Below, piece by piece: positions 53,435 through 64,000 of a DNA stretch of 64,000 nucleotides (positions are counted from its first letter, which is position 1; every line of letters starts with the position of its first letter). The DNA is from a virus (taxonomy: Duplodnaviria; Caudoviricetes). Made by a program: the position numbers and the translations under genes. Location: positions 1,949-65,948 of IMG/VR virus record IMGVR_UViG_3300047509_000221. One strand, 5' to 3'. The notes below the pieces were generated by a model. The model was given only the letters and a program-made list of their open reading frames with translations. It was not told the DNA's origin and searched no databases.

Positions 53435-54139
53435 ATGAGAATACTGCACGTCGACCACTGCGATGATCGATATCTGGAGATGGTACTCACGTGCCGGAAC
53501 CACGAGCTCGTCGTCCACTACGCCGAGGACGGGGACGAGGCCATCAGCATTCTGGTCCGCGACCCCTACGAGGTGGCCATTGTCGCGCCGGGTCTCCAAG
53601 ACTTCGAGGGCTGCGAACTCATCCGCCGTCTGCGGGCCTGCCGGGTCCACATCCCAATCATCCTCCTCGGCGACAGGACGACGCCCGAGTACCGAGCGCG
53701 GGCGCTCTGGGACGGGGCCGACGATGTGCTGGACCTGCCGTGGGCGCGAGACGAGATGGTCGCCCGCATCAAGAGCCTGGCCCGACGCTCCCACGGACAC
53801 AGCAGCGGCATCCTCAAGGTCGGCCCGCTGATCGTCGACCAGGAGCGCATGCGAGTACTCCGGGTCGGGGTCGGCGGCGGCATGCCCATCGCCATGACCG
53901 AGAAGGAGTACCTCCTCCTCGAGCTGCTGGCCATGCGGGCCGGGCGCGTCTGCACCAAGCAGCAGATCATGGACCACCTGTACGGTGGCCGCGACGAGCC
54001 CGAGGAGAAGATCATCGACGTCTTCGTCTGCAAGATCCGCCGCAAACTCGGGGAGCTGTCCTGGGTGATCGGCACAGTCTGGGGCAGAGGCTATCTCCTC
54101 CGCACCGACCAGCCCTCCCCCGCCTATGTCGCGGCCTGA
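53435..54139 (+). CDS. ctrA: CtrA-like response regulator with degenerate receiver domain
   Basis: HLYGGRDEPEEKIIDVFVCKIRRKL...TVWGRGY closely matches the CtrA DNA-binding domain; protein ends in AA. Confidence 0.85.
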   Translation: MRILHVDHCDDRYLEMVLTCRNHELVVHYAEDGDEAISILVRDPYEVAIVAPGLQDFEGCELIRRLRACRVHIPIILLGDRTTPEYRARALWDGADDVLDLPWARDEMVARIKSLARRSHGHSSGILKVGPLIVDQERMRVLRVGVGGGMPIAMTEKEYLLLELLAMRAGRVCTKQQIMDHLYGGRDEPEEKIIDVFVCKIRRKLGELSWVIGTVWGRGYLLRTDQPSPAYVAA

Positions 54140-54587
54140 CGACGGCCTCCGACCGCTCTTCCACGGTCGGCTTCCTGACCTGCACTGGCAGGCCATCGAG
54201 CTCGGAGTGGTTGGGCGGGGGGTGCCCGACAGCAACTACTGCGGAGACGGGGCCGAGGGCTGGCTCGAGTTCAAGAGTACTGAGTCCCACAGTGTGGGGC
54301 TCAGGCCTGAGCAGGTGGGGTGGATACTGAGACGATGTCGCTCGGGCGGCAGGGTCTTCGTCGTGACCCGACGCCGGCACGACGGCGGACCCCTGCTGGG
54401 GCCTCCGTCGGACGAGCTGTGGATTCATGAGGGCTGGGATGCGGCAGTGCTGAAGGCGGAGGGTCTGAACGCGGCACCACCGGTCCTCCACCAGGAAGGA
54501 GGCCCCAGTCGCTGGGACTGGGGCCTCGTCAGGTCGGTACTTGTGGAGTGGGTACTCAGTCGGCGTGGTGGGCCTTCAGTGACCTGA
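54126..54587 (+). CDS. PD-(D/E)xK nuclease (VRR-NUC/resolvase-like)
   Basis: GVPD...WLEFK...LRPEQVGW...GGRVFV. Confidence 0.75.
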   Translation: MSRPDDGLRPLFHGRLPDLHWQAIELGVVGRGVPDSNYCGDGAEGWLEFKSTESHSVGLRPEQVGWILRRCRSGGRVFVVTRRRHDGGPLLGPPSDELWIHEGWDAAVLKAEGLNAAPPVLHQEGGPSRWDWGLVRSVLVEWVLSRRGGPSVT

Positions 54588-54936
54588 CCGTGTCGCGGTC
54601 GAGGGCGTACTCCTCAGGCTCGATGCGGCCCCTCCTAACATCCTCGGCCAGTCCGGCGAGGCTGTCGGCGAGGTGAATGCCGCCTGCGGTGTAGATGCCG
54701 TCAAGCGTCGGCTTGTCGTCGGGGAGCTCGGGGTCGATGTCCCACAGGAGATCACCGCGAACCGGACAGCAGGTCATGCTCTCCGGACCCTCGTACACCA
54801 CGAAGATGCCGAACCGACTGGCGCCACTGTCGCAGCACTGTGCGATGGCGTGGTGAACACCATCCTTGTGCTTGCCCCAGTACCCGAAGGCACTCGGGGT
54901 CTTCGCCAGATACACGCGCGTCTTCTCGCTAGTCAT
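54556..54936 (-). CDS. hypothetical protein
   Basis: GAGGAG RBS; predicted promoter TTTACT-N17-TACAAT at about 55002-55030. Confidence 0.6.
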   Translation of the reverse strand: MTSEKTRVYLAKTPSAFGYWGKHKDGVHHAIAQCCDSGASRFGIFVVYEGPESMTCCPVRGDLLWDIDPELPDDKPTLDGIYTAGGIHLADSLAGLAEDVRRGRIEPEEYALDRDTVRSLKAHHAD

Positions 54937-55053
54937 ACCAGTCTCCTCACGTTGTCAAAGAGCCGGTCACTCAGGTGACCGACGCCCTCGGCGGGCGTCC
55001 AATTGTACACCGGATGGGTCAAAAAGTAAAGTCACTTGATCCACGGCCGACGC

Positions 55054-55085
55054 AAAACGAGGCCCCGGTGGGAGCCGGGGCCTCG
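55054..55085 (-). terminator. rho-independent terminator
   Basis: 11-bp stem CGAGGCCCCGG/CCGGGGCCTCG followed by TTTT on the minus strand. Confidence 0.7.
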
Positions 55086-55108
55086 GTCTGGCGCGCGAAT
55101 GGGGCGGA

Positions 55109-55237
55109 CTAGCGCGTCTGGAGAGTGGCCTCCGACCGGGCGAAAGCAGCGTTGATCGAGTGGGCGATGGCCGACATGGCGGCGAGGGCGATGAGGACCC
55201 CGACAAGGGTCACGAGACAGTACTCGGCAGTGCGCAT
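55109..55237 (-). CDS. leaderless Flp-pilin-like peptide (42 aa)
   Basis: AGGAGG RBS; MRTAEYCLVTLVGVLIALAAMSAIAHSINAAFARSEATLQTR (translated by hand). Confidence 0.6.
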   Translation of the reverse strand: MRTAEYCLVTLVGVLIALAAMSAIAHSINAAFARSEATLQTR

Positions 55238-55248
55238 GATGTGGCCTC

Positions 55249-55338
55249 CTAGCTGGCGACGGCGGTGAAGAGGAAGATGAAGACGTAGAAGCCAGCCATG
55301 CCGGCGAGTACGATGAGGGCGGCGCGGGTCCGTGTCAC
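55249..55338 (-). CDS. 29-aa single-TM peptide
   Basis: AGGAGG RBS plus GTG; MTRTRAALIVLAGMAGFYVFIFLFTAVAS. Confidence 0.55.
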   Translation of the reverse strand: MTRTRAALIVLAGMAGFYVFIFLFTAVAS

Positions 55339-55348
55339 GTGATACCTC

Positions 55349-55576
55349 CTACCTTGTGCGTGCCTGGCGCACAAGGCGCTGGGCCATCTTGACGTTGTTC
55401 AGGAGCGAGCGGTGGTCGCTCGCGGAGCCGGGGACGGTGATGATGCCCCGGCGCTGGCCGCCCGCCTCGCTCCAGAGAACGCGCGGGTGGCGGCGGCTGC
55501 GGTCTATGCTGACGTCGCGGACGCCCATCTCACGGATGGCACTGGCGACTGCCTCGGCGATGTCTTGCTTGGCCAT
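55349..55576 (-). CDS. HicA-like (dsRBD-fold) small protein
   Basis: RRHPRV...ITVPGSASDHRSLLN; GAGGAG RBS and predicted promoter. Confidence 0.5.
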   Translation of the reverse strand: MAKQDIAEAVASAIREMGVRDVSIDRSRRHPRVLWSEAGGQRRGIITVPGSASDHRSLLNNVKMAQRLVRQARTR

Positions 55577-55683
55577 GACTGGGTCTCCTCGGCTGGTGAC
55601 CCAAGTCTTGTACGCCCATTGGCCCATGGTGTAAAGCGAATTGTTCAGTGGACCCCCGGCCCCGATCGGGGGTCCGGGTACGA

Positions 55684-55911
55684 CTACACGGTCTCGGTCT
55701 GGAGAACCTCCAGGCTGCGGCGAATGGGCACCTGCTCGATGTTCTGCTGGCCCTGCGCCTTGGACATCGCGTCCGTGCTGGTCTCGTAGAACAGCGTCTG
55801 GGCGCTCAGCGGCCCGAACACCACCTTGCCGGCGCTGCTCAGGTACGCCCAGTTGTCCGTGCCCTTCTGGCGCAGACCAATGACCGTGTCGCTGTGGTTC
55901 TTCTGCTGCAT
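55684..55911 (-). CDS. hypothetical protein
   Basis: GAGGAG RBS, promoter motif upstream, hairpin downstream. Confidence 0.55.
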   Translation of the reverse strand: MQQKNHSDTVIGLRQKGTDNWAYLSSAGKVVFGPLSAQTLFYETSTDAMSKAQGQQNIEQVPIRRSLEVLQTETV

Positions 55912-55979
55912 AGGTAGTCTCCTCTGAGGTCCCACCCCGACGGGCACCCTACGCCCGCGCGCCGTGGTCCGTAAAGGGC

Positions 55980-56198
55980 CTAGACGACGATGTCGACGAC
56001 CCTGGAGACGCGGACCACCTCTGCCTCGGGGTGGCTCCTGAGAATGATGGCGAGCTCCTCGTCGTCCTCCTCGAAGAACGTGGTGACGGGGGACATGGGA
56101 CCCCACTCGCAGAATTCGTCGTCGTGCGTCAGACGCATGAACATGTCGCTGTCGCGGCGACGGACGGCGGCTGCCGTGTCGACGTGTGTTCTCATCAC
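55980..56198 (-). CDS. hypothetical protein
   Basis: Acidic 72-aa ORF. Confidence 0.45.
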   Translation of the reverse strand: MMRTHVDTAAAVRRRDSDMFMRLTHDDEFCEWGPMSPVTTFFEEDDEELAIILRSHPEAEVVRVSRVVDIVV

Positions 56199-56283
56199 GC
56201 GGTGGGGACCCCAGTGGCCAGACCGGGGTCCCCCTCCGAGCGCTCCCCGATGGGGAGGGGGTGGGTTGTGGCGCCCGGAGTTC

Positions 56284-56568
56284 TCATCGCGCCCTCTCCC
56301 TCATCGGCGTCAGCGGAACCCAGCCGTCTCTCCAGCGGTAGTCCAGCCTGCCCTCGTACACGTCCCGCTGCTGCTCCTCGCTCATGTGGTCGCCGGGGCA
56401 GTCGTGCGGAAGAGTCCCCTCCGCGCCACCACAGCGCTCGCAGGCGTACAGGGTGCAGAGGTGACAGATGCCTGCAGCGCAGGACTCAGTGTCACCTGGA
56501 CACCGGACACGCTTGTGTCCGTGAAAGTGAAGGATGATGGCGGTCATCTCGATCTCCGACCCTAGCAT
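56284..56568 (-). CDS. Cys-rich hypothetical protein
   Basis: C..C...CERCGGAEGTLPHDCPG...LDY..GW. Confidence 0.6.
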   Translation of the reverse strand: MLGSEIEMTAIILHFHGHKRVRCPGDTESCAAGICHLCTLYACERCGGAEGTLPHDCPGDHMSEEQQRDVYEGRLDYRWRDGWVPLTPMRERAR

Positions 56569-56602
56569 ACCCGATGAAGACCCGGTGCGAAAGGGGGCCG
56601 TC

Positions 56603-57079
56603 TTAGGAGCCCTTGCGCAGGACGCGCTCAGCCACGGTCGGGGCCGTCTGGGGCGGGGCCTCCACGCGCTCTCTGGGCGTCGAGGCGAGGGTGGATATCG
56701 CCCCGAGAAGAGAGCGCTCGGCGTCCACCTGCCTCGTCGTCGACCCGCCGAGATTGTAGGACAGGTGCGTGAGCCTGCGACCCTGTCGCCTCGCCTTGCG
56801 GCCGATGCTGCGGCGGGCCTGCTCGCCTATTCTGGGCACTTCGGTAGACGTCATCTTGCGAATACCGAGGCCACGCACAGTCTCGAACCGCATCCCAGTC
56901 CGACGCTCAACGTGCCTCCGGGCCTGGATGAGGGAGTAGCTGCTGGCGTCTATGGGACACTTCGCGACGTCGGCCAGTAGGACGTAATCCGCGATGGCGT
57001 CCATTGACAACTCAGACAGCACCTGAGACAGGGCTGCTATCTCTCGCTGTCTGGTGGGGTTCTTCCTGAACTGGATCAT
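56603..57079 (-). CDS. putative winged-helix-like accessory protein of the RAMP/pentamer-array locus
   Basis: AGGAGAG RBS; basic protein; FETVRGLGIRK wing-like hairpin. Confidence 0.65.
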   Translation of the reverse strand: MIQFRKNPTRQREIAALSQVLSELSMDAIADYVLLADVAKCPIDASSYSLIQARRHVERRTGMRFETVRGLGIRKMTSTEVPRIGEQARRSIGRKARRQGRRLTHLSYNLGGSTTRQVDAERSLLGAISTLASTPRERVEAPPQTAPTVAERVLRKGS

Positions 57080-57097
57080 GATGGTCTCTCCTGATGT

Positions 57098-57167
57098 GCG
57101 TTGCGGTGTGGTGCGCGGTGCGGTACGGTGACGTGTGGCGCCGCGTCGCTACGCGAAGCGTAGCTTG
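57098..57167 (-). ncRNA. pentamer array D (14 units), putative guide RNA
   Basis: All 14 units start with G on + (gcgtt gcggt gtggt gcgcg gtgcg gtacg gtgac gtgtg gcgcc gcgtc gctac gcgaa gcgta gcttg). Confidence 0.7.
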
Positions 57168-57168
57168 C

Positions 57169-57720
57169 TCAATCCCACTTGAAATTGCTGACCTCGTATC
57201 TTCCGAAGTATCCCCCCCGCTCGGGACGGAAGCGTCCGACCCCGACGGCGAGCCCGGCATAGCGAACTGCCTCCTCGAACACGTCAGGAGTGATCTCGTC
57301 GGCCAGGACGTGGAACTGGACCACTCCGTCCCAGTCGTCGATGCGGGGGAAGGTGCGCCACACGCGCTTGCCGGAGCCGCGAACACCGTCGGCGTTGGCA
57401 TGAATGCGCTCGGGCTGAATTTCGTCCTCACTGGCAATTGGCACGTTCTTCGTGACAATGACGCCGCTCTCGAAGAACTTGGTGTAGGTGGACTTGCCCT
57501 TGCCGGGTATCTGACGCCCCAGCATCTTGGCGGCTCGGTCGACGCCCATCTTGAAGGCCATCGCAGGAACGACGACCATGCCATTCTCGATGTGGGCCTT
57601 CTGCCTCCAGGTGCGCTTCTCGTAGTCGTCGGGCGTCTCTCTGTTCAGCTTCTCGGCGCAGTGTGCGCGACTGGCACTGTACGGTGCCTGTCCGACAAAG
57701 GTAACGGTGCAAGTTCTCAT
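57169..57720 (-). CDS. stand-alone Cas7/RAMP-like protein
   Basis: N-terminal beta strand VTFVGQAP, VPAMAFK, and C-terminal Gly-rich loop AGLAVGVGRFRPERGGYFGRYEV typical of RAMPs. Confidence 0.7.
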   Translation of the reverse strand: MRTCTVTFVGQAPYSASRAHCAEKLNRETPDDYEKRTWRQKAHIENGMVVVPAMAFKMGVDRAAKMLGRQIPGKGKSTYTKFFESGVIVTKNVPIASEDEIQPERIHANADGVRGSGKRVWRTFPRIDDWDGVVQFHVLADEITPDVFEEAVRYAGLAVGVGRFRPERGGYFGRYEVSNFKWD

Positions 57721-57744
57721 GGCGGGTCTCCGGTTGGTTTATTG

Positions 57745-58170
57745 GCGTTGCATGGTAATGCCGAGTGTGGAGCAGCGAAGCCCTGCGTTGCGTGGAGGAG
57801 CGTAGCCTCTTGGTGCATGACAACGCGACACGTGGTGGGGCGCTGTGTTGCATCGCGCCGTGGTGCTCAGCGTTGCGATGTGGGGCAGATGGTGCGTCGC
57901 GGTGAGAGGCGCTGCGGGGCGAGGCCCTGCGTAGTGCGGCGTCGCGCAGCGCAGTGGAGTGTTGCGATGCTCTGCGATGCGCAGCAAAAAGTAGGAGGGG
58001 ACGAGGCTCTGCGTTGCGATGCCATGCGGGACACTGCGGGGCGGGGCTACGCGGGACGTCGCGCAGCGGTGCGGTGAGCAGGGCAGAATTGCGTTGCGGT
58101 GCTGCGTGCAGCGGTGCGCAGAGACGCGCAGCGCCGCTGGGCCAAGAGGCGAGTAGCGCAGCGAGGACTC
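57745..58170 (-). ncRNA. pentamer arrays A (57745-57889), B (57894-57988) and C (58001-58170); putative guide RNAs
   Basis: 82 units in 5-nt phase, consensus GCG-NN on + (NN-CGC on -); 76 of 82 begin with G. Confidence 0.8.
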
Positions 58171-58180
58171 CATCTCATTA

Positions 58181-58210
58181 CATCTAGGCTGAGTATGCAT
58201 GGTTCGTAAA
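58181..58210 (-). promoter_or_regulatory. predicted promoter for the array and RAMP gene
   Basis: TTTACG-N18-TAGATG, same family as the other phage promoters, about 10 nt before the first unit. Confidence 0.55.
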
Positions 58211-58214
58211 GTCT

Positions 58215-59108
58215 TCATCCCATGCTCTCGATCATCTCGGCCAGCAGCCGCTTGTCCTCTACCTCCTGCTCGACCATCACGTCCCAGGCCTCCTCGTCGC
58301 GGATGCGCATGACCGCGTCCCGAATGAGGTCCTGGATGACCTGTGGGTCCAGAGCGTCGAGCTCCCACGACTCCTCCCCGTACAGGTCCCTGTAGGACGC
58401 GAACCGGGAGTCATTCTCCTTGGCTGGGTTGGGCGGGGGAGAGTACTGCTCGATCTGGTCCATGTTGAGCGCTAGGCGGCTGACCATGACGGGGACGCCC
58501 GCGTACAGGCTCAGCTTCTCCGCGTTGCTCTCGGTCATGTGGATTCCGCTCGGGTCGTGGTCGCCGAGGTGGAAGACGATCGGGCGCTGGCCCCGCTGGA
58601 TGTAGTCCGCGAAGCGTCGCCCGGCGCGCCAGTGCTCGCTCGTGGAGTTGTAGCCCTTCTGGGCGTAGAAGTCCACCTCGAGCCGGTTGCATATCTGGCC
58701 GACCACGCCCTCGAGCGCCTGCTTCTCGACCCAGACCTCCGGCCGGAACGGCTGGTTGGCCCACTTGTCGATGCTGTACCCGGCGAGCGCGTCCCGGAGC
58801 ACCTGCGCCGGGCTCGTCTGGTGGTTCAGTCCCATCAGGTTGCGGCCCCGGTCCTCGATCGCCGTCCACGAGATCAGGCCGACGTTCCGGCCGGTGTTGA
58901 TCGCGCCCTGGATGCGGTCGTAGGTGGCCCCGGTGTTGGGCATCCACCCGCGCTGGACGAACTGGTAGTGAATCTGGCGAACGGTCAGGGTGAAGCCCTT
59001 CTGCTCGTACTCGCCGACGACGTGGTTGATGCGCCCGATGAGGTCGACGGTGACTGACCGGAGGTTCCGCTCCTCGTACGCGATGTAGAGGCCGGTGTCC
59101 TCAGTCAC
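58215..59108 (-). CDS. TOPRIM-domain protein (Topo VI-A/JetD-like)
   Basis: TVRQIHYQFV, EVWVEK, HLGDHDPSG, RLALN..QI, WELDAL. Confidence 0.75.
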   Translation of the reverse strand: MTEDTGLYIAYEERNLRSVTVDLIGRINHVVGEYEQKGFTLTVRQIHYQFVQRGWMPNTGATYDRIQGAINTGRNVGLISWTAIEDRGRNLMGLNHQTSPAQVLRDALAGYSIDKWANQPFRPEVWVEKQALEGVVGQICNRLEVDFYAQKGYNSTSEHWRAGRRFADYIQRGQRPIVFHLGDHDPSGIHMTESNAEKLSLYAGVPVMVSRLALNMDQIEQYSPPPNPAKENDSRFASYRDLYGEESWELDALDPQVIQDLIRDAVMRIRDEEAWDVMVEQEVEDKRLLAEMIESMG

Positions 59109-59340
59109 GACTCTCGGCCTCCTGCTTGCGGACAATCTGCCGGGCTCTCCGGCCCTTGACGTCCAGAAAGCGCTCGCGGCCCATCCGGGCCACGGTCAGC
59201 GGAAACTTTGTCTGCCCCAGCAGTCTCTCGGTGTGATCCTTCGGGCGCAGGGCCACCAGGATGACGCGGTCGCGGTGTCGGCAGACGCGGTACGTGCGTC
59301 CACGATCACGAACATAGGTGTTGGTGATTGGGCTAGTCAT
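59101..59340 (-). CDS. hypothetical protein
   Basis: Basic ORF downstream of predicted promoter TTTACA-N17-TACATG. Confidence 0.5.
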   Translation of the reverse strand: MTSPITNTYVRDRGRTYRVCRHRDRVILVALRPKDHTERLLGQTKFPLTVARMGRERFLDVKGRRARQIVRKQEAESRD

Positions 59341-59545
59341 CCTCGGGTCTCCTCGGCAGAGGATCACCATGTACCTCGGTCAGGCCATCATGTAAAGCCC
59401 TCCTGAGCTCCGCGATCAGCTCGGGGACGTCCACGTGGCAGTCCCAGTGCTCCGCCCAGCGTCCGTCGGAGGACGACGCCGGGCCGTAGCGCGGCTGCGT
59501 CGATCGGACCGGCTCTCCACAGATCCTGCAGACGGGGTCAGGCAA
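59333..59545 (-). CDS. small Zn-finger-like protein
   Basis: CRICGEP...HWDC. Confidence 0.45.
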   Translation of the reverse strand: MPDPVCRICGEPVRSTQPRYGPASSSDGRWAEHWDCHVDVPELIAELRRALHDGLTEVHGDPLPRRPEDD

Positions 59546-59710
59546 TGTATATGTCCTCGATGGCGTACTGAATCGCCTGCCGGCAGAACTCCTTCATGGA
59601 AACACCATTCCGCGCAGCGTGGGACTGAATCTCCTGATAGAGTTCTCGCGACATTGGCAGAGTTATCTGAGTCATGTCGACATCCTTGGCAGGCTTCTTT
59701 GGGCGGAAGG

Positions 59711-60733
59711 TCATCCGATCACTCCCGCCACCTTGCGCTCTCCGGCCTGCTGGTCGATGCCGACGGAGTCGCCAGCTTCGTAGCCCGCGCGGTAGGCTCC
59801 CCAGTCGCGCTGCTTCTCCGAGCCCGTGCCGGCGTTCGAGGACCGCTTGCGCTCGGCCTTGCGGCGCTCCTCCTCCTGCGCGGCGGCCTCCTCGGGGTGG
59901 GCGGCTGCCCAGCGGGTGTACTCCTCCTGAGCCTCTCGCTTGCGACGGGCGCGCTCGGCCCTCTCATATCTCTGCTGCGCCGACCAGCCCTCTCCCATGA
60001 CGAAGTCCATGTTGGCGTCTTCCTCCGTCTTGCGGAGGTCGGCCAGAGTCATGGCGGTCGCAGTGCTGACTCCCGCCATCCCTGCCTCGCGGACGCGGCG
60101 CTCCTCGTCCAGGGCGCGCTGGCGCTCCTCGGATATCTGGGTCTGGCGGCGGTCCCACAGCTTCTCGGCAATCCTCTCGGCGATGCCCTCGCGGAAGGAG
60201 ACGGCCCAGCGGCTGCGCAGCTGGGTATTGACGGATTCAGTCACGCCTTCTTCATGAAGACGTGACCGAGTCAGTCTCTCGATCGTGCCGAGCAGGTACT
60301 GGGCCATCGTCCGCGTCGCCTGGATATTGTGCAGACGCCCGATGATCTTGAACTCGCCCCGGAGAATGTGCGTCCGGCGGAACGGGTCCAGAATTCGGAG
60401 CGCCTTCGCATCAAGGCGCTCCCTCTTCACCCAGTGCTTCTGGTGCCAGCAGAGGCAGAAGTTGAGCTCGGCGATGCGACTCCAGAGATCGCGCTCGTAC
60501 TCGTAGAAGCCCCCGACCAGCCGCTCCTCGGCCCGGCGTCCGCCGCCCTCGCCCGTCTCGTCCACGGACGCGAGGGTGAGGTTAAGGTCGGCCAGCATGG
60601 CCATGGCCTTGGCCGTCGCGGCGGCGGCCTCGTGCTCGTTGGGGTTCCGTCCGGCGAGGCGCAGCAGCTTCTCGACAGTGTCGAGTCCGGCGCGCTGCTC
60701 CTCAGTGAGCTGGTCGGTGGTCAAGCGTCGCAC
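59711..60733 (-). CDS. DUF2786-domain protein
   Basis: VEKLLRLA...NEHEAAAATAKA..M; SFREG; AYRAGYEAG. Confidence 0.75.
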   Translation of the reverse strand: MRRLTTDQLTEEQRAGLDTVEKLLRLAGRNPNEHEAAAATAKAMAMLADLNLTLASVDETGEGGGRRAEERLVGGFYEYERDLWSRIAELNFCLCWHQKHWVKRERLDAKALRILDPFRRTHILRGEFKIIGRLHNIQATRTMAQYLLGTIERLTRSRLHEEGVTESVNTQLRSRWAVSFREGIAERIAEKLWDRRQTQISEERQRALDEERRVREAGMAGVSTATAMTLADLRKTEEDANMDFVMGEGWSAQQRYERAERARRKREAQEEYTRWAAAHPEEAAAQEEERRKAERKRSSNAGTGSEKQRDWGAYRAGYEAGDSVGIDQQAGERKVAGVIG

Positions 60734-60969
60734 TCCTCATCCTCGTCCGCATCGCAGACAGTGGCAATCGACGACGGAAACATCTCCACTGTCAAGCGTA
60801 GCGGGGTCCCGCACTCGCAGCGCATGAAGACAGGGGTCTCGCTCCCGTCATCTGCAGGCTTTGTGGGTGGCTCCAGATCTGAGTAGCAACCGGGACAGGT
60901 GAAGCGATCACTGAAATGATCGTTTGAGCAGTAGACACCGCGCTCAACGTCGAAACGTCCGAATGGCAT
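60721..60969 (-). CDS. Zn-ribbon hypothetical protein
   Basis: CPGC...CECG. Confidence 0.5.
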   Translation of the reverse strand: MPFGRFDVERGVYCSNDHFSDRFTCPGCYSDLEPPTKPADDGSETPVFMRCECGTPLRLTVEMFPSSIATVCDADEDEECDA

Positions 60970-61004
60970 GACTGAGTCTCCTCGGCAGAGACCTCATCAT
61001 AGCG

Positions 61005-61469
61005 TCAGGACGGACTTCGCGAAAGTCCCCCTCTCGCCCTCTCAATCAGGGCCGACGACGACTGCGTCTTGCCGCCGCCCACGCCAAAGGCAAGGTCGAC
61101 CGCGCCCTCGTACCGGCACCACGACTCCTCGGGGGTCGTGCCGGTGCCCCGGTCGCCGCCATTGCAGAACGTGATGCGGGAGCGGGGGTGCAGGGCTCGG
61201 AGCTCGATGAGAGAGCGGACGACTGTGCCATCCTCGTCCAGCGCATGGTGCACGCAGACCACGCCCCGAATGGCCCTGACGATCTCGGCCCTCTCGTCCC
61301 AGGACATGAAGGGCTGCCCCTTCTTGCGGACCAGCCATGCGTCGGAGTTGAGGATGACGTGCACCGGGCCGTGCTCGAGCGCGCCCAGGAGCAGGCGCGC
61401 GTGTCCGGAGTGCAGCGGGTCGAAGCCTCCGCTCACGACGGAGATGCGACGCTCGAACCAGTTCATCAC
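61005..61469 (-). CDS. cytidylyltransferase-like nucleotidyltransferase (HxGH family)
   Basis: SGGFDPLHSGH, LNSDAWLVRKKG, NGGDR, GGGKTQSSS. Confidence 0.85.
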   Translation of the reverse strand: MMNWFERRISVVSGGFDPLHSGHARLLLGALEHGPVHVILNSDAWLVRKKGQPFMSWDERAEIVRAIRGVVCVHHALDEDGTVVRSLIELRALHPRSRITFCNGGDRGTGTTPEESWCRYEGAVDLAFGVGGGKTQSSSALIERARGGLSRSPS

Positions 61470-61780
61470 AGGTCGCCCTCCCTCAGCTGCTGGTTGCGCC
61501 CGGCATCGTCCTCCGGCACGAACCTCTCAGTGTCGATGGTCCGGGCTGGCTGCGTGCGGTTGGGGCGCGGGTACTGCGTGCCCAGCGGCATCGACGGAAT
61601 GTCCCCGAAGAAGGCGTGGCCGTCCTGGTACTTGCCGGCGATCTCGGCAGCCGTGACCCAGCGGTCAAAGACCGGGGCGAGCTCCAGGTTGTCATCTGGC
61701 ATCTCCACGAACCAGCGCTGGCAGGCAGGCCGCCAGGCGACCACGCAGCGCCGCGCCCTCACGCAGCCCTCTCGTCCCAC
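61466..61780 (-). CDS. hypothetical protein
   Basis: Fills the gap between flanking genes. Confidence 0.4.
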   Translation of the reverse strand: MGREGCVRARRCVVAWRPACQRWFVEMPDDNLELAPVFDRWVTAAEIAGKYQDGHAFFGDIPSMPLGTQYPRPNRTQPARTIDTERFVPEDDAGRNQQLREGDL

Positions 61781-62988
61781 TGGGCGAGGTCCTCGTCCAC
61801 CAGATGGTGGGCGTCGCTCTCCATCCAGTCGTAGTCGTCGTGCCCGAACTCGGTCTCGACCACGCCGAGGTACAGCCGGAGGTAGTCCTCGGCAGCCCGC
61901 GCGGCCTCCCCCCGCCCCATGTCGGGGCAGCGGGCCTCGTATCTGTCGGCCATCCAGCCGACGAACTGGGCGCGGCTCTGCCGCCTGCCCATCATCTGCT
62001 CGAACGAGGTCCAGACCTGCGGCCAGGAGCCGCGCGTGGCGGCCTTGCTGTACTCGGTGGCTCGCGTCTCGAAGAAGTTGGCGTGCTCGACACCGCTCAG
62101 GAGCGGCTGGAGCCAGACAGACACCGGGTCATCAGTGACTCCGAAGAGCGGGGGTAGTCGAAGCTGGTGCAGGCGCCAGTCCGCAATGCGGCGGATGTAG
62201 AGCTTCATCTCGGCGGCGGAGAGGCCCTCGACCTCGCCGCCAGAGGCCTCGAACGCGAGGTCGACGAACGCATCCTCCAGGCGTACCTGCGTCGCGAAGA
62301 CGTCCATGATGTCGCTCTCGACCTGCTTAGTCCTACCTCCGGTCTCCTGGGCAAGTGTGTGGTGCAGGCGGATGATGCCGTCGCAGTGGAGGCTCTCGTC
62401 GCGCACTGACCAGGTCACGATCTGCCCCATGCCCTTCATCAGGCGTCGGCGCGGGAAGTGCATCAGCATCGCGAAGCTGGCGAACAGGGAGAGGCCCTCG
62501 GTCGCGCCGCCGAACATGGCAGTGGTGCGGAGAATGTCGTCGACGCTGCCGACCCCGAAGGTCTCCATGTAGTCGGCCTTGGCGGCCATGGCCTCGTAGT
62601 TACGGAAGGCGCTGAACTCCTCGTCGGGCATGCCGACGGTGTCCAGCAGCAGCGAGTAGGCCAGGATGTGGATGGTCTCCATGGACGCGAAGGCCGAGAG
62701 CATCATCTTGACCTCGGTTGGCCGGAAGACCTGCGCGTATCGCTCCAGATAATTGTCGTTGACCTGCACGTCGGACTGCGTGAAGAAGCGGAATATCTGC
62801 GTCAGCAGCCCGCGCTCACCGTCTGTCAGGCGCCCGCCCCAGTCCCGGACATCGTCGGCCAGCTGGGCCTCCTCGGGCGTCCAGTGGATGCGGTGCTGCT
62901 GCCGGCAGTACTCGACTGCCCAGGGATACATGTACGGGCGGAAATTGGCGCTGGGCCGCAGAAGGCCAGGAAGTCTACTCGTCGACAC
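61759..62988 (-). CDS. nrdB: ribonucleotide reductase class Ia beta subunit with C-terminal extension
   Basis: FRFFTQSD, ETIH..AY, EGLSLFASF, WSVRDESLH, HANFFE.RATEY. Confidence 0.92.
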   Translation of the reverse strand: MSTSRLPGLLRPSANFRPYMYPWAVEYCRQQHRIHWTPEEAQLADDVRDWGGRLTDGERGLLTQIFRFFTQSDVQVNDNYLERYAQVFRPTEVKMMLSAFASMETIHILAYSLLLDTVGMPDEEFSAFRNYEAMAAKADYMETFGVGSVDDILRTTAMFGGATEGLSLFASFAMLMHFPRRRLMKGMGQIVTWSVRDESLHCDGIIRLHHTLAQETGGRTKQVESDIMDVFATQVRLEDAFVDLAFEASGGEVEGLSAAEMKLYIRRIADWRLHQLRLPPLFGVTDDPVSVWLQPLLSGVEHANFFETRATEYSKAATRGSWPQVWTSFEQMMGRRQSRAQFVGWMADRYEARCPDMGRGEAARAAEDYLRLYLGVVETEFGHDDYDWMESDAHHLVDEDLAQWDERAA

Positions 62989-63466
62989 GCTCGGCCGCCT
63001 CCTCGTCGGTGCATGGTGGAATGAACACAGGGCCGCCGAGGGCGGCGACGGCCATGTGGACGTACTGCTCGGCCTCCTCGGGCCGGTCGCGGAGCACCAT
63101 CTCCCAGGCGTCCGGGACCATCCGGCCCTCGGAGGTGGTGATCATCTTCTCGCGGGCGACATTGTAGATGCCCTCGGCGGCGGCCAGGAGGACCTCTCTC
63201 GAGTGCTCGCCGGTCGTGTCCTTCAGCACGGACACCCGGCGGAGCTCCTCGTGCAGCATGACCATGTGGCCCGCCGCGCGATGGATGGCCTGTCCCTGCG
63301 GTGTCCTGAGACCCCCGGCCTGCTCGGCGAGGGTGCGGAGGAACTTGACGGCAGTCACCCGCTCGGGTGGCTTGTCCGGCACGAGGGCCTGGCCGCGACT
63401 GTCGACCAGTCTTGGTCCGGGGACAAACGTCTCTCCGTTGAGGAGGCGGTTCTTGATGTCTGGCAT
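62975..63466 (-). CDS. hypothetical protein
   Basis: ORF upstream of nrdB. Confidence 0.5.
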   Translation of the reverse strand: MPDIKNRLLNGETFVPGPRLVDSRGQALVPDKPPERVTAVKFLRTLAEQAGGLRTPQGQAIHRAAGHMVMLHEELRRVSVLKDTTGEHSREVLLAAAEGIYNVAREKMITTSEGRMVPDAWEMVLRDRPEEAEQYVHMAVAALGGPVFIPPCTDEEAAERVDE

Positions 63467-63656
63467 AGTACGCCAGCCTAGCCTGACGCCACCCTGTCCG
63501 CTACTCTGTAGCCCTCGTCCATGCCGAGCCTCCTGCGAGCCTCCAGGACGCGCTGGAGGTGGTCGCGACGGACGACGGTACGCGGGGCCGGGACGGAGCT
63601 CAGCAGCGTCCTGGACGACGCTCGAGCGCCTCGAGTAAAGTAGTCGACCTCAACCT

Positions 63657-63971
63657 TCACAGTGTGTCCCCCATCTTGCTGTCGAGGAGGGTCTCCTCAA
63701 TCTTGTACCGGAGGACGCGCGCACATCGATGCGGCAGGTCTCCCAGAATGCGAACCATGCTGCCCACCTCAGCGACAATCGTGGAATAGGAGACAGAGCG
63801 GAACGAGAGAAACCACTTGCCAGCAATGTCGTCGACATCGTCGTGATCGAAGCGACTGGCCCTCCATCCCGAGCCAGTCACGAAGGAGACGAAGTCCTCG
63901 TACGACGAGGTGCCCGGCTCACACGTGACGTGTGCCTCGAAGTAGCGCGGATCGATGCGGTCGGGCAGCAC
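63657..63971 (-). CDS. hypothetical protein
   Basis: YFEAHVT...RYKIEETLLDS; may extend beyond the window. Confidence 0.55.
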   Translation of the reverse strand: MLPDRIDPRYFEAHVTCEPGTSSYEDFVSFVTGSGWRASRFDHDDVDDIAGKWFLSFRSVSYSTIVAEVGSMVRILGDLPHRCARVLRYKIEETLLDSKMGDTL

Positions 63972-64000
63972 CGTCTCGGCGATGGCGTCGAGCGCGGTCA

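What the first reader, a model, noticed from the sequence alone, without database searches (positions are those of the whole stretch)
58001..58090. Adjacent guide decodes to the E1/ThiF nucleotide-binding loop (IIGLGGTGS)
Seen: NN = AG CT TT AT AT GG CT GG GG AC GG TC CA GT GT CA CA TT, giving [R/S]-L-[F/L]-[I/M]-[I/M]-G-L-G-G-T-G-S-[H/Q]-V-V-[Q/H]-[Q/H]-[L/F]. The core GLGGTGS is unambiguous because each of those dinucleotides belongs to a four-fold degenerate codon box. Known: GxGGxGS is the ATP-binding loop of ThiF/MoeB/E1 enzymes (a similar GLGGTG also occurs in tubulin-like proteins), and E1 and JAB domains co-occur in ubiquitin-like defence operons. Inference: two neighbouring guides aim at the E1 and JAB parts of one kind of host defence locus, which would be programmable anti-defence.
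Basis: partly seen in the sequence, partly recalled or inferred. Interest (0 to 1): 0.93.

Follow-up and report, generated by a model that had tools for sequence, protein, structure and literature searches.

The report
Phage VIPR guide spelling E1 loop
This stretch is one guide in the five-letter-repeat RNA array of a phage VIPR system (a CRISPR-like DNA silencer described in 2026), and its variable letters spell the nucleotide-binding loop of a ThiF/E1 enzyme, but no actual target gene was found.

Summary
Window 58001-58090 lies in a strict period-5 array (fixed GCG-like triplet plus variable NN on +). Its NN letters, read as codon positions 1-2, give [FL][IM][IM]GLGGTGS[HQ]VV.

The locus is a VIPR system, a kind published in 2026 preprints: a lone Cas7-like protein (57169-57720, minus), an accessory gene and CGC/NN guide arrays. 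In those preprints NN pairs with DNA while every third base, usually the wobble, is skipped.

This scan has already noted VIPR in at least 369 other genomes.

The ThiF/E1 reading is supported at family level:
- Exact 10-unit seeds hit three independent ThiF lineages in frame, and also three unrelated contexts.
- Rhizobial plasmid Bub-type E2-E1 genes match 22 of 24 core letters.
- The neighbouring guide matches a BilC-like JAB gene (18 of 20 seed letters) 8 kb away on one such plasmid.
- A related phage carries a guide to the same JAB motif.

No near-perfect target was found. The best full-length match is 26 of 32, which is not significant at database scale. E1 and JAB best hits lie in different operon types. 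Anti-defence is plausible but unshown.

Verdict: a new member of a known kind, of moderate interest.

The parts
58011..58090 (-). Candidate vrRNA guide C1: 16 pentamers (NN-CGC on the minus, RNA strand). Its NN decode on the complementary strand to [FL][IM][IM]GLGGTGS[HQ]VV[HQ][HQ][FL]. This is the finding proper.
   Evidence: The terminal AA-CGC unit lies at 58011-58015.
58001..58010 (-). They lie 3' of the terminal AA-CGC unit on the RNA and are probably spacer, not guide.
58091..58170 (-). Candidate vrRNA guide C2: 16 pentamers that decode to [FL]VA[HQ]V[HQ]T[HQ]PG[KN]A[Y*][HQ][RS]S, a BilC-like JAB metal-site motif.
57894..57988 (-). Array block B: 19 pentamers that decode to ..LG[RS]LYRS[HQ][HQ][DE][FL][IM]L[IM].., the GMGSLYRSQHEL motif of ParB-fused N6/N4 DNA methyltransferases.
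   Evidence: The seed hit 4 viral contigs, all in such genes. The best match is 30 of 38. The shuffle control gave 0 of 2000.
57745..57889 (-). Array block A: 29 pentamers directly upstream of vipr. Its first 8 units give a weak match (12 of 16 letters) to LCMDWRH, about 31 codons upstream in the same methyltransferase genes. The rest is undecoded.
   Evidence: The first 8 units (called A1 in the full report) are not significant alone (357 of 2000 shuffles).
57169..57720 (-). vipr: a 183-aa lone Cas7/RAMP-fold protein with a conserved glycine-rich C-terminal loop.
   Evidence: AlphaFold model with pLDDT 83.7. Foldseek E 2e-7 and VIA-align Z 12.0 over 156 residues to type VII Cas7 and Csm3. 1857 homologs. 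79 of 80 related loci carry period-5 arrays.
57098..57167 (-). Array block D: 14 pentamers between vipr and the accessory gene. No target was recognised.
56603..57079 (-). Candidate vap (accessory gene): a 158-aa basic protein. The model shows a helix-strand-helix-helix-hairpin start followed by long helices.
   Evidence: A homolog lies next to vipr in 23 of 80 loci. The model has pLDDT 85.7. Foldseek gives only weak winged-helix-like rows, E 0.076 or worse. No Pfam family.

Best explanation
The stretch is one guide (most likely 58011-58090, transcribed from the minus strand) of a VIPR system.

How VIPR works, as published for the E. coli phage SUSP1 system:
- Copies of the small Cas7-like Vipr protein line up along the RNA, one per five-base repeat.
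- Each copy hides the fixed triplet (here CGC instead of GGY) and presents the two variable bases.
- The presented dinucleotides pair with double-stranded DNA while every third target base is skipped. The guide therefore reads codon positions 1-2 and ignores wobble.
- Binding blocks transcription.

This guide's dinucleotides specify the codons of IIGLGGTGS(H/Q)VV. That is the nucleotide-binding loop of a ThiF/E1 adenylation domain. It is closest to the E2-E1 fusion (BubBD) of Type II Bub ubiquitin-like operons, which are common on alphaproteobacterial plasmids.

Most likely role: the phage uses the guide to silence such an E1 gene in the infected cell.

Shown here: the array, the Cas7 fold, the conserved gene-array linkage, and the family-level match.

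Inferred only: transcription and processing of the guide, validity of the skip rule for CGC/NN, silencing, and who owns the target.
For: - Period-5 array confined to the flanks of the gene.
- Vipr fold: Z 12.0, rmsd 4.5, 156 residues aligned to type VII Cas7; Csm3 close behind.
- 79 of 80 IMG/VR loci with a homolog show period-5 stretches next to it. 26 of these carry the canonical GGC/NN.
- NN entropy is 1.9-2.0 bits, against 0.04-1.0 for the triplet positions of the three triplet classes found in 10 or more loci; the single AGT locus reaches 1.42.
- An accessory-gene homolog is adjacent in 23 of 80 loci.
- Published mechanism: Results and Discussion of 10.64898/2026.04.26.720920 and one Results section of 10.64898/2026.04.26.720927.
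- Target family: 10 of 16 exact-seed hits lie in frame in ThiF P-loops. They are identified as PF00899 plus DUF6791, PRK06153 and TIGR03736.
- Rhizobial plasmid BubBD-like genes match 21-22 of 24 core letters.
- 120 homologs have the consensus RVAIIGLGGTGSYVLDFV. Shuffle control 0 of 2000.
- Independent support that this array's guides decode to real genes: guide C2 to JAB, block B to ParB-methyltransferase, and a related phage's guide to the same JAB motif.
- There is no self-target, and no ThiF, JAB or methyltransferase gene in the phage.
Against: - No natural target was found.
- The 12-unit core and three 10-unit seeds gave 0 hits in viral contigs.
- The 10-unit seed hits in genome and metagenome contigs do not extend beyond the seed: 23-26 of 32 letters over the full 16 units.
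- At least 26 of 32 is expected about 0.05 times per Gb, so the best hit (an Actinomycetota MAG) is not significant as a specific target.
- The ten ThiF seed hits are three sequence types. Three other types are non-ThiF.
- The last five decoded positions (VV[HQ][HQ][FL]) disagree with the Bub consensus (VLDFV).
- The shuffle maximum of 10 of 16 is close to the observed 11, because GG units are common.
- The fixed triplet is CGC, not GGY. The skip rule has not been tested for this clade.
- No RNA data exist for this locus.
- The host is unknown.
Confidence: 0.7

Rival explanations
1. Anti-defence reading. The E1 gene (and the JAB gene of guide C2) belongs to the host's own ubiquitin-like immune operons (Bub or Bil type). 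The phage silences these to escape defence.
For: - The JAB guide fits BilC-like peptidases of alphaproteobacteria: 13 of 16 residues, and PDB BilC at E 4.7e-15 for the plasmid gene it hits.
- The Bub preprint (passages) describes Bil operons as protecting their host from phage infection.
- On Rhizobium plasmid NZ_CP140874.1 the Bil-like and Type II Bub-like operons lie 8 kb apart. They sit among UvrD, PD-(D/E)XK and SbcCD-like genes.
- E1 and JAB seeds gave 0 hits in IMG/VR in 5 scans. The methyltransferase seed gave 4. This suggests cellular or plasmid owners rather than viral ones.
- A related phage (L003) carries another guide on the same JAB motif.
Against: - No match reaches 80% of NN in any likely host.
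- The host is unknown.
- An anti-phage role for Bub was not stated in the passages read (the term 'anti-phage' occurs 0 times).
- The operons seen are on conjugative plasmids, so they are themselves mobile.
- The published VIPR targets are rival phages and satellites.
- A later check in this scan on a similar claim left the bold reading at 30 in 100.
Confidence: 0.3
2. Inter-element conflict reading. The E1 gene sits on a rival mobile element, such as a conjugative plasmid or ICE with a PRTRC or Bub cassette, or a prophage. It is silenced as in the published VIPR cases.
For: - Published natural targets are satellites, prophages and other VIPR systems (abstract of 10.64898/2026.10.15.759431).
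- PRTRC ThiF genes (TIGR03736) share the exact 10-unit seed. They sit on 415 plasmid records.
- BubBD-like genes sit on 127 plasmid records, 40 of them conjugative and 56 mobilizable.
- Block B of the same array points at ParB-methyltransferases found on viral contigs.
Against: - The one alphaproteobacterial PRTRC ThiF examined has a different loop (VVLVGCGGNGAQ) and scores 22 of 32 elsewhere.
- PRTRC loci from gut contigs give no JAB-guide match.
- No viral contig carries the E1 or JAB seeds.
Confidence: 0.3
3. The resemblance to the ThiF loop is coincidental. The guide's real target is something else, or the array serves as a scaffold or decoy for Vipr without a specific target.
For: - GG is a common unit, and shuffles reach 10 of 16.
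- Half of the independent seed-hit types are non-ThiF.
- Decoy vrRNAs exist in satellites (abstract).
- Blocks A2 and D decode to nothing recognisable.
Against: - Three independent ThiF lineages are hit at the same motif and in the same frame.
- Three other guides or blocks of the same array and of a sister phage decode, in the same orientation, to conserved motifs of real families. Shuffles gave 0 of 2000 each.
Confidence: 0.1

Closest known systems
VIPR systems (Vipr + vap + vrRNA), type II of Escherichia phage SUSP1 and a Pseudomonas fulva prophage (bioRxiv 10.64898/2026.04.26.720920, .720927 and 10.64898/2026.10.15.759431)
   Same: - A phage-borne lone RAMP of about 20 kD.
- An adjacent small accessory gene.
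- Flanking arrays of pentamers with a fixed triplet and hypervariable NN.
- Guides of about 9-16 units (median 10-12 in the three triplet classes found in 10 or more loci).
- NN decode in frame with the wobble skipped.
- Guides fall on codons of catalytic motifs, as published for a satellite recombinase active site.
   Different: - The triplet is CGC, not GGY.
- No long 3' tail or pseudoknot was seen. Guides abut one another and end in a conserved AA-CGC unit.
- The protein shares no detectable sequence similarity with cultured-phage entries beyond 26-29% identity to two records.
- The decoded targets (E1, JAB, ParB-methyltransferase) are not mentioned in the main texts searched.
- Homology to the published Vipr sequences was not tested.
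Non-canonical VIPR arrays (GAC/NN, CAC/NN, WGT/NN, TGH/NN) in bioRxiv 10.64898/2026.10.21.760802
   Same: Period-5 arrays with another fixed triplet beside a Vipr-like fold. I also see CAC, GAC, CTC and AGT among the relatives.
   Different: 'CGC' does not occur in that paper's main text. Its figure S10 and its tables were not visible to me.
Cas7 backbone of class 1 CRISPR effectors (type VII Cas7, Csm3)
   Same: The fold (Z 10-12 over the full length), and the idea of one protomer per RNA repeat with bases flipped out.
   Different: There is no CRISPR array, no other cas gene, a period of 5 rather than 6, and gapped pairing.
Type II Bub (BubA, BubBD, BubE) and Bil (BilA-D) bacterial ubiquitin-like operons
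   Same: They are the gene families whose conserved loops the two guides spell.
   Different: They are the presumed targets, not relatives of the locus. No member matches the full guide.

Membership tests
VIPR system | A lone small RAMP (RRM core, glycine-rich loop, thumb) outside any CRISPR-cas locus | tested here: met
   Full-length structural match to Cas7/Csm3. A conserved GVGRFRPERGGYFGR loop. The neighbours are phage replication genes with no cas genes. The thumb was not examined separately.
VIPR system | Flanking tandem pentamers: a fixed triplet alternating with hypervariable NN | tested here: met
VIPR system | The fixed triplet is GGY (YNNGG) | tested here: not met
   The window has CGC. 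The papers allow 'a related consensus'. Homologs at 46-48% identity carry GGC/NN.
VIPR system | An adjacent accessory gene (vap) with a DNA-interaction fold | tested here: inconclusive
   A conserved neighbour in 23 of 80 loci. The fold search gave only weak winged-helix-like rows, E 0.076 or worse.
VIPR system | Guides match targets under the 1-nt skip rule, with the skip on the wobble | tested here: inconclusive
   Family-level in-frame matches for C1, C2 and B. No full-length natural target of 80% or more that is significant at database scale.
VIPR system | vrRNAs are expressed, processed and bound by Vipr; binding silences the target | not testable with these tools
   No RNA data for this locus were available to these tools.
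VIPR system | Sequence or profile homology to published Vipr proteins (X1U2U4, SUSP1) | not tested
ThiF/E1 adenylation domain (as target of the guide) | The decoded string coincides with the glycine-rich nucleotide-binding loop of proteins that score as ThiF family | tested here: met
   - L081 protein: PF00899, 1.9e-10.
- L089: TIGR03736, 5e-77. L086: PRK06153, 8e-167.
- Plasmid genes annotated as ThiF family.
ThiF/E1 adenylation domain (as target of the guide) | A specific gene matches the whole guide | tested here: not met
   The best are 26 of 32 and 24 of 32. Exact seeds gave 0 in viral contigs.

The most novel reading that the evidence does not exclude
A clade of soil alphaproteobacterial phages uses VIPR as a programmable anti-defence tool. 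Its guides are kept on the wobble-blind codon patterns of catalytic loops of host ubiquitin-like immune enzymes (Bub-type E1, BilC-type JAB). One guide can thus silence many alleles, and escape would cost the enzyme its active site. This would be an RNA-guided counterpart of protein anti-defence factors. The VIPR main texts I searched do not mention such a target class.
Probability: 0.3. Interest if true: 0.8.

Novelty: new member of a known kind. Interest (0 to 1): 0.45.

Why it matters
VIPR was described only in 2026, and its shown natural targets are rival phages and satellites.

Here a divergent CGC/NN member, from a large uncultured family (1857 homologs), carries adjacent guides. These guides spell the catalytic loops of an E1 enzyme, a JAB peptidase and a DNA methyltransferase.

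If the E1 and JAB genes are host immune genes, phages would have RNA-guided, reprogrammable anti-defence. The wobble-skipping code would then work as a way to aim at protein motifs rather than at DNA alleles.

Even without that, the locus gives bioinformatic support that the skip rule holds for a non-GGY scaffold.

Tried and rejected
1. Rfam scan of 54000-64000 at E up to 1: nothing. Tandem Repeats Finder: nothing. The units are too variable.

2. My first idea was a TRAP-like protein-binding array. I dropped it once the Cas7 fold and the VIPR papers were found.

3. Megablast of 52,201 bases of the window (1-50000 and 57000-59200) against cultured phages gave only short hits. No host could be inferred.

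4. PRTRC as a joint E1 + JAB target: the sphingomonad PRTRC locus and the gut PRTRC loci give no match beyond the seed and no JAB-guide match.

5. Type I Bub (JAB-E1 fusion) as a single-gene target. Its loop AAIIGVSGTGSIVAEQV resembles the guide. Its JAB domain was not found with the BilC-like query. Left open.

6. The Bil E1 (BilD-like) has a different loop.

7. The methyltransferase seed was absent from the three plasmids tested.

8. Blocks A2 and D score at noise against the three families. The first 8 units of block A (A1) are not significant alone.

9. The JAB query against plasmids found one close homolog only.

10. Expression: no RNA holder was listed for 56600-58250, only one DNA run, the possible source.

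11. Supplements, figures and data tables of all papers were not visible. They may list CGC/NN types or such targets.

12. The paper 10.1101/2024.11.21.623953 was read only as passages.

Full report
WHAT IS IN THE SEQUENCE

Window 57721-58214 is non-coding DNA between two minus-strand genes. Read in fives, it consists of about 82 units: a GCG-like triplet plus two variable bases on the + strand. A further 14 units fill the gap 57098-57167.

GCG in a single phase of five reaches 7 or more per 100 nt only at 57061-57191 and 57741-58191 in the whole 64 kb. A column-conservation score of 0.75 or more occurs nowhere else; the window's 99.9th percentile is 0.83.

Rfam and TRF see nothing.

WHAT THE LOCUS IS

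The gene inside the arrays (57169-57720, minus, 183 aa, P0001) has no Pfam family. It has 1857 homologs in metagenomes.

Its AlphaFold model (pLDDT 83.7) matches Cas7-family backbone subunits over its full length:
- Foldseek E 2e-7 to type VII Cas7 and Csm3.
- VIA-align Z 12.0, rmsd 4.5 A, 156 residues aligned.

Of 80 IMG/VR loci that encode a homolog, 79 show period-5 stretches, mostly abutting the gene.

The fixed triplet differs by lineage. Counting the window with the 80 loci, the gene-strand triplets are:

| Triplet | Loci |
|---|---|
| CGC | 40 |
| GGC | 26 |
| CAC | 10 |
| CTC | 2 |
| GAC | 1 |
| AGT | 1 |

The NN positions have 1.9-2.0 bits of entropy. The triplet positions have 0.04-1.0 bits in the three triplet classes found in 10 or more loci; the single AGT locus reaches 1.42.

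A homolog of the downstream 158-aa gene (P0002) lies next to the RAMP gene in 23 of 80 loci. Its model (pLDDT 85.7) gives only weak winged-helix-like rows.

THE PUBLISHED COUNTERPART

A literature search found bioRxiv 10.64898/2026.04.26.720920. I read its Results, Discussion and part of its Methods. It describes VIPR systems as follows:
- A phage-borne ancestral RAMP (Vipr), an accessory vap gene, and vrRNAs of 9-16 YNNGG repeats.
- NN pairs with double-stranded DNA under a 1-nt skip rule.
- The skipped base usually falls on the codon wobble.
- Natural targets are satellites, prophages and other VIPR systems.

Three further preprints bear on this:
- The companion structure paper (abstract and one section) shows one protomer per repeat, the GGY triplet sequestered and NN presented.
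- A later preprint (abstract and passages) shows a guide on the codons of a recombinase active site.
- Another (passages) reports non-canonical triplets such as GAC/NN and CAC/NN.

The locus is a VIPR system with a CGC/NN scaffold. This scan has noted VIPR in at least 369 other genomes.

THE GUIDE ITSELF

The RNA strand is the minus strand. On it the units read NN-CGC.

Arrays of this clade end at the RNA 3' side in an AA-CGC unit in 111 of 193 cases. In the window such units lie at 57745, 57785, 57865, 58011 and 58091 on +. The spacings 58011 to 58091 to 58171 are 80 nt each, which is 16 units.

The guide is thus most likely 58011-58090.

The + strand NN, read 5' to 3', is the DNA strand that the RNA would pair with. 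So the decoded peptide is on the strand complementary to the guide.

DOES IT SPELL A ThiF/E1 LOOP?

The phage has no self-match and no ThiF, JAB or N6/N4 methyltransferase gene.

Exact-seed scans:
- The 12-unit core gave 0 hits in viral contigs.
- The 10-unit seed gave 0 in viral contigs, 3 in genome contigs and 13 in metagenome contigs.

Of those 16 places, 10 lie in frame in ThiF-family P-loops. They represent three sequence types:
- A DUF6791 + ThiF protein beside a multiubiquitin gene in an Actinomycetota MAG (L081, L087, L096).
- A PRK06153-type protein (L086).
- PRTRC ThiF proteins from gut contigs (L089 and five near-identical loci).

The other 6 places are three unrelated contexts. That is about what chance predicts: 0.4 per 100 Gb at 61% G+C.

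None of the hits extends beyond the seed. They score 23-26 of 32 letters over the full 16 units. At least 26 of 32 is expected 0.05 times per Gb.

tblastn of the L086 protein against plasmids found 127 records, many from Rhizobium, Mesorhizobium, Agrobacterium and Bradyrhizobium. In two of them the operon is multiubiquitin, ThiF, DUF6527. This is the Type II Bub architecture (BubA, BubBD, BubE) of bioRxiv 10.1101/2024.11.21.623953 (passages). Their loops, IIGLGGTGSYVL and IIGLGGTGAYVL, match 22 and 21 of the 24 core letters.

The consensus of 120 homologs is RVAIIGLGGTGSYVLDFV. The best residue match to the 18 units is 12 of 18.

Draws of 16 units from the window's 96 units reached the observed 11 of 16 in 0 of 2000 draws (mean 6.6, maximum 10). 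This family was chosen after the fact.

The guide's last positions (VV[HQ][HQ][FL]) do not fit Bub Type II. They are somewhat nearer to the Type I BubCD loop in the PDB.

THE NEIGHBOURING GUIDES

Guide C2 (58091-58170):
- Its 10-unit seed, at up to 3 mismatches, was searched in the two whole rhizobial plasmids. It hit once, at 18 of 20 letters, where 0.0016 is expected. The reversed control pattern gave 0.
- The hit is the metal-site motif of a Mov34/MPN gene. That gene lies in an operon of multiubiquitin, JAB and a 428-aa protein, 8 kb from the Bub-like operon on NZ_CP140874.1.
- The JAB protein matches PDB BilC (E 4.7e-15). The 428-aa protein matches BilD (1.7e-12). The BilD-like loop is unlike guide C1.
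- Among 120 homologs, the named ones all alphaproteobacterial, the best fit to C2 is 13 of 16 residues (VRAQVHTHPGAAYHSS). Shuffles gave 0 of 2000, with a maximum of 9.

A related phage. L003 has a Vipr 75% identical to this one. Its first guide decodes to S[FL]VVRV[HQ]V[HQ]T[HQ]P, against SLGVRVQVHTHP in that JAB family.

All arrays together. I scanned 310 arrays in 81 loci with 10-unit windows at 9 or more of 10 residues. Only the window hit E1 and the methyltransferase. Only the window and L003 hit JAB. Three shuffle rounds gave 0, 0 and 1 windows in total.

Block B. Its seed hit 4 viral contigs, all in ParB-fused N6/N4 methyltransferases at GMGSLYRSQHEL. The best match is 30 of 38 letters. 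Shuffles gave 0 of 2000.

Orientation. All the decodable guides read in the same orientation.

WHAT REMAINS OPEN

- I found no near-perfect target for C1 or C2.
- Five E1/JAB seed scans of viral contigs gave nothing.
- The host is unknown.
- E1 and JAB best hits lie in different operon types, so 'one kind of locus' is not shown.
- The genes could belong to host immunity or to rival plasmids and elements, and this cannot be decided. The examples seen are on conjugative plasmids, in a region that also holds UvrD, PD-(D/E)XK and SbcCD-like genes.
- Transcription, processing, the skip rule for CGC/NN and silencing are all inferred from the SUSP1 work.

VERDICT

The decoding idea is right and is already in print. 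The ThiF/E1 assignment holds at family level. The anti-defence inference is plausible, at about 0.3, but untested.

The locus is a new member of a known kind.

Noticed in passing
L001-L080 and window 57098-58170: The fixed triplet of the pentamer changes with the Vipr lineage: CGC 40 loci, GGC 26, CAC 10, CTC 2, GAC 1, AGT 1. This suggests a protein-RNA recognition code that could be read from covariation between triplet and G-loop or thumb residues.
   Followed up: partly
window 57745, 57785, 57865, 58011, 58091 (+); arrays of L001-L080: Arrays end at the RNA 3' side in a conserved unit: AA-CGC in 111 of 193 CGC arrays and GA-CAC in 67 of 72 CAC arrays. In the window these units are spaced 80 nt apart. 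Guides abut without the long 3' tail described for SUSP1.
   Followed up: partly
window 57894-57988 and 57745-57784; L103-L106: Block B, and weakly the first 8 units of block A, decode to two motifs about 31 codons apart in ParB-fused N6/N4 DNA methyltransferases carried on viral contigs.
   Followed up: partly
L003 3364-3613: A sister phage (Vipr 75% identical) has a 50-unit array. Its first guide spells the same BilC-like JAB motif, shifted a few codons upstream.
   Followed up: yes
L102 (NZ_CP140874.1 18000-44000): A Rhizobium conjugative plasmid carries a Bil-like operon and a Type II Bub-like operon 8 kb apart. They lie among UvrD-helicase, PD-(D/E)XK, SbcCD-like and sigma-factor genes, so the region looks like a defence island.
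   Followed up: no
window 57989-58010: A non-repeat spacer between blocks B and C contains AAAAAGTAGGAGGGG on + (a T-run on the RNA strand). It may be a guide boundary or a processing or termination signal.
   Followed up: no
window 58215-59135 and 61759-62988 (minus): Neighbouring genes match phrog_6247 (annotated DNA topoisomerase, 3e-95) and the ribonucleotide reductase small chain. The VIPR module therefore sits in the phage's replication and nucleotide-metabolism region.
   Followed up: no
window guides B, C1, C2; L003 guide: All decodable guides are complementary to the sense (coding) strand of their presumed targets. This is 4 of 4 (three in the window, one in L003), which is too few to test.
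   Followed up: no
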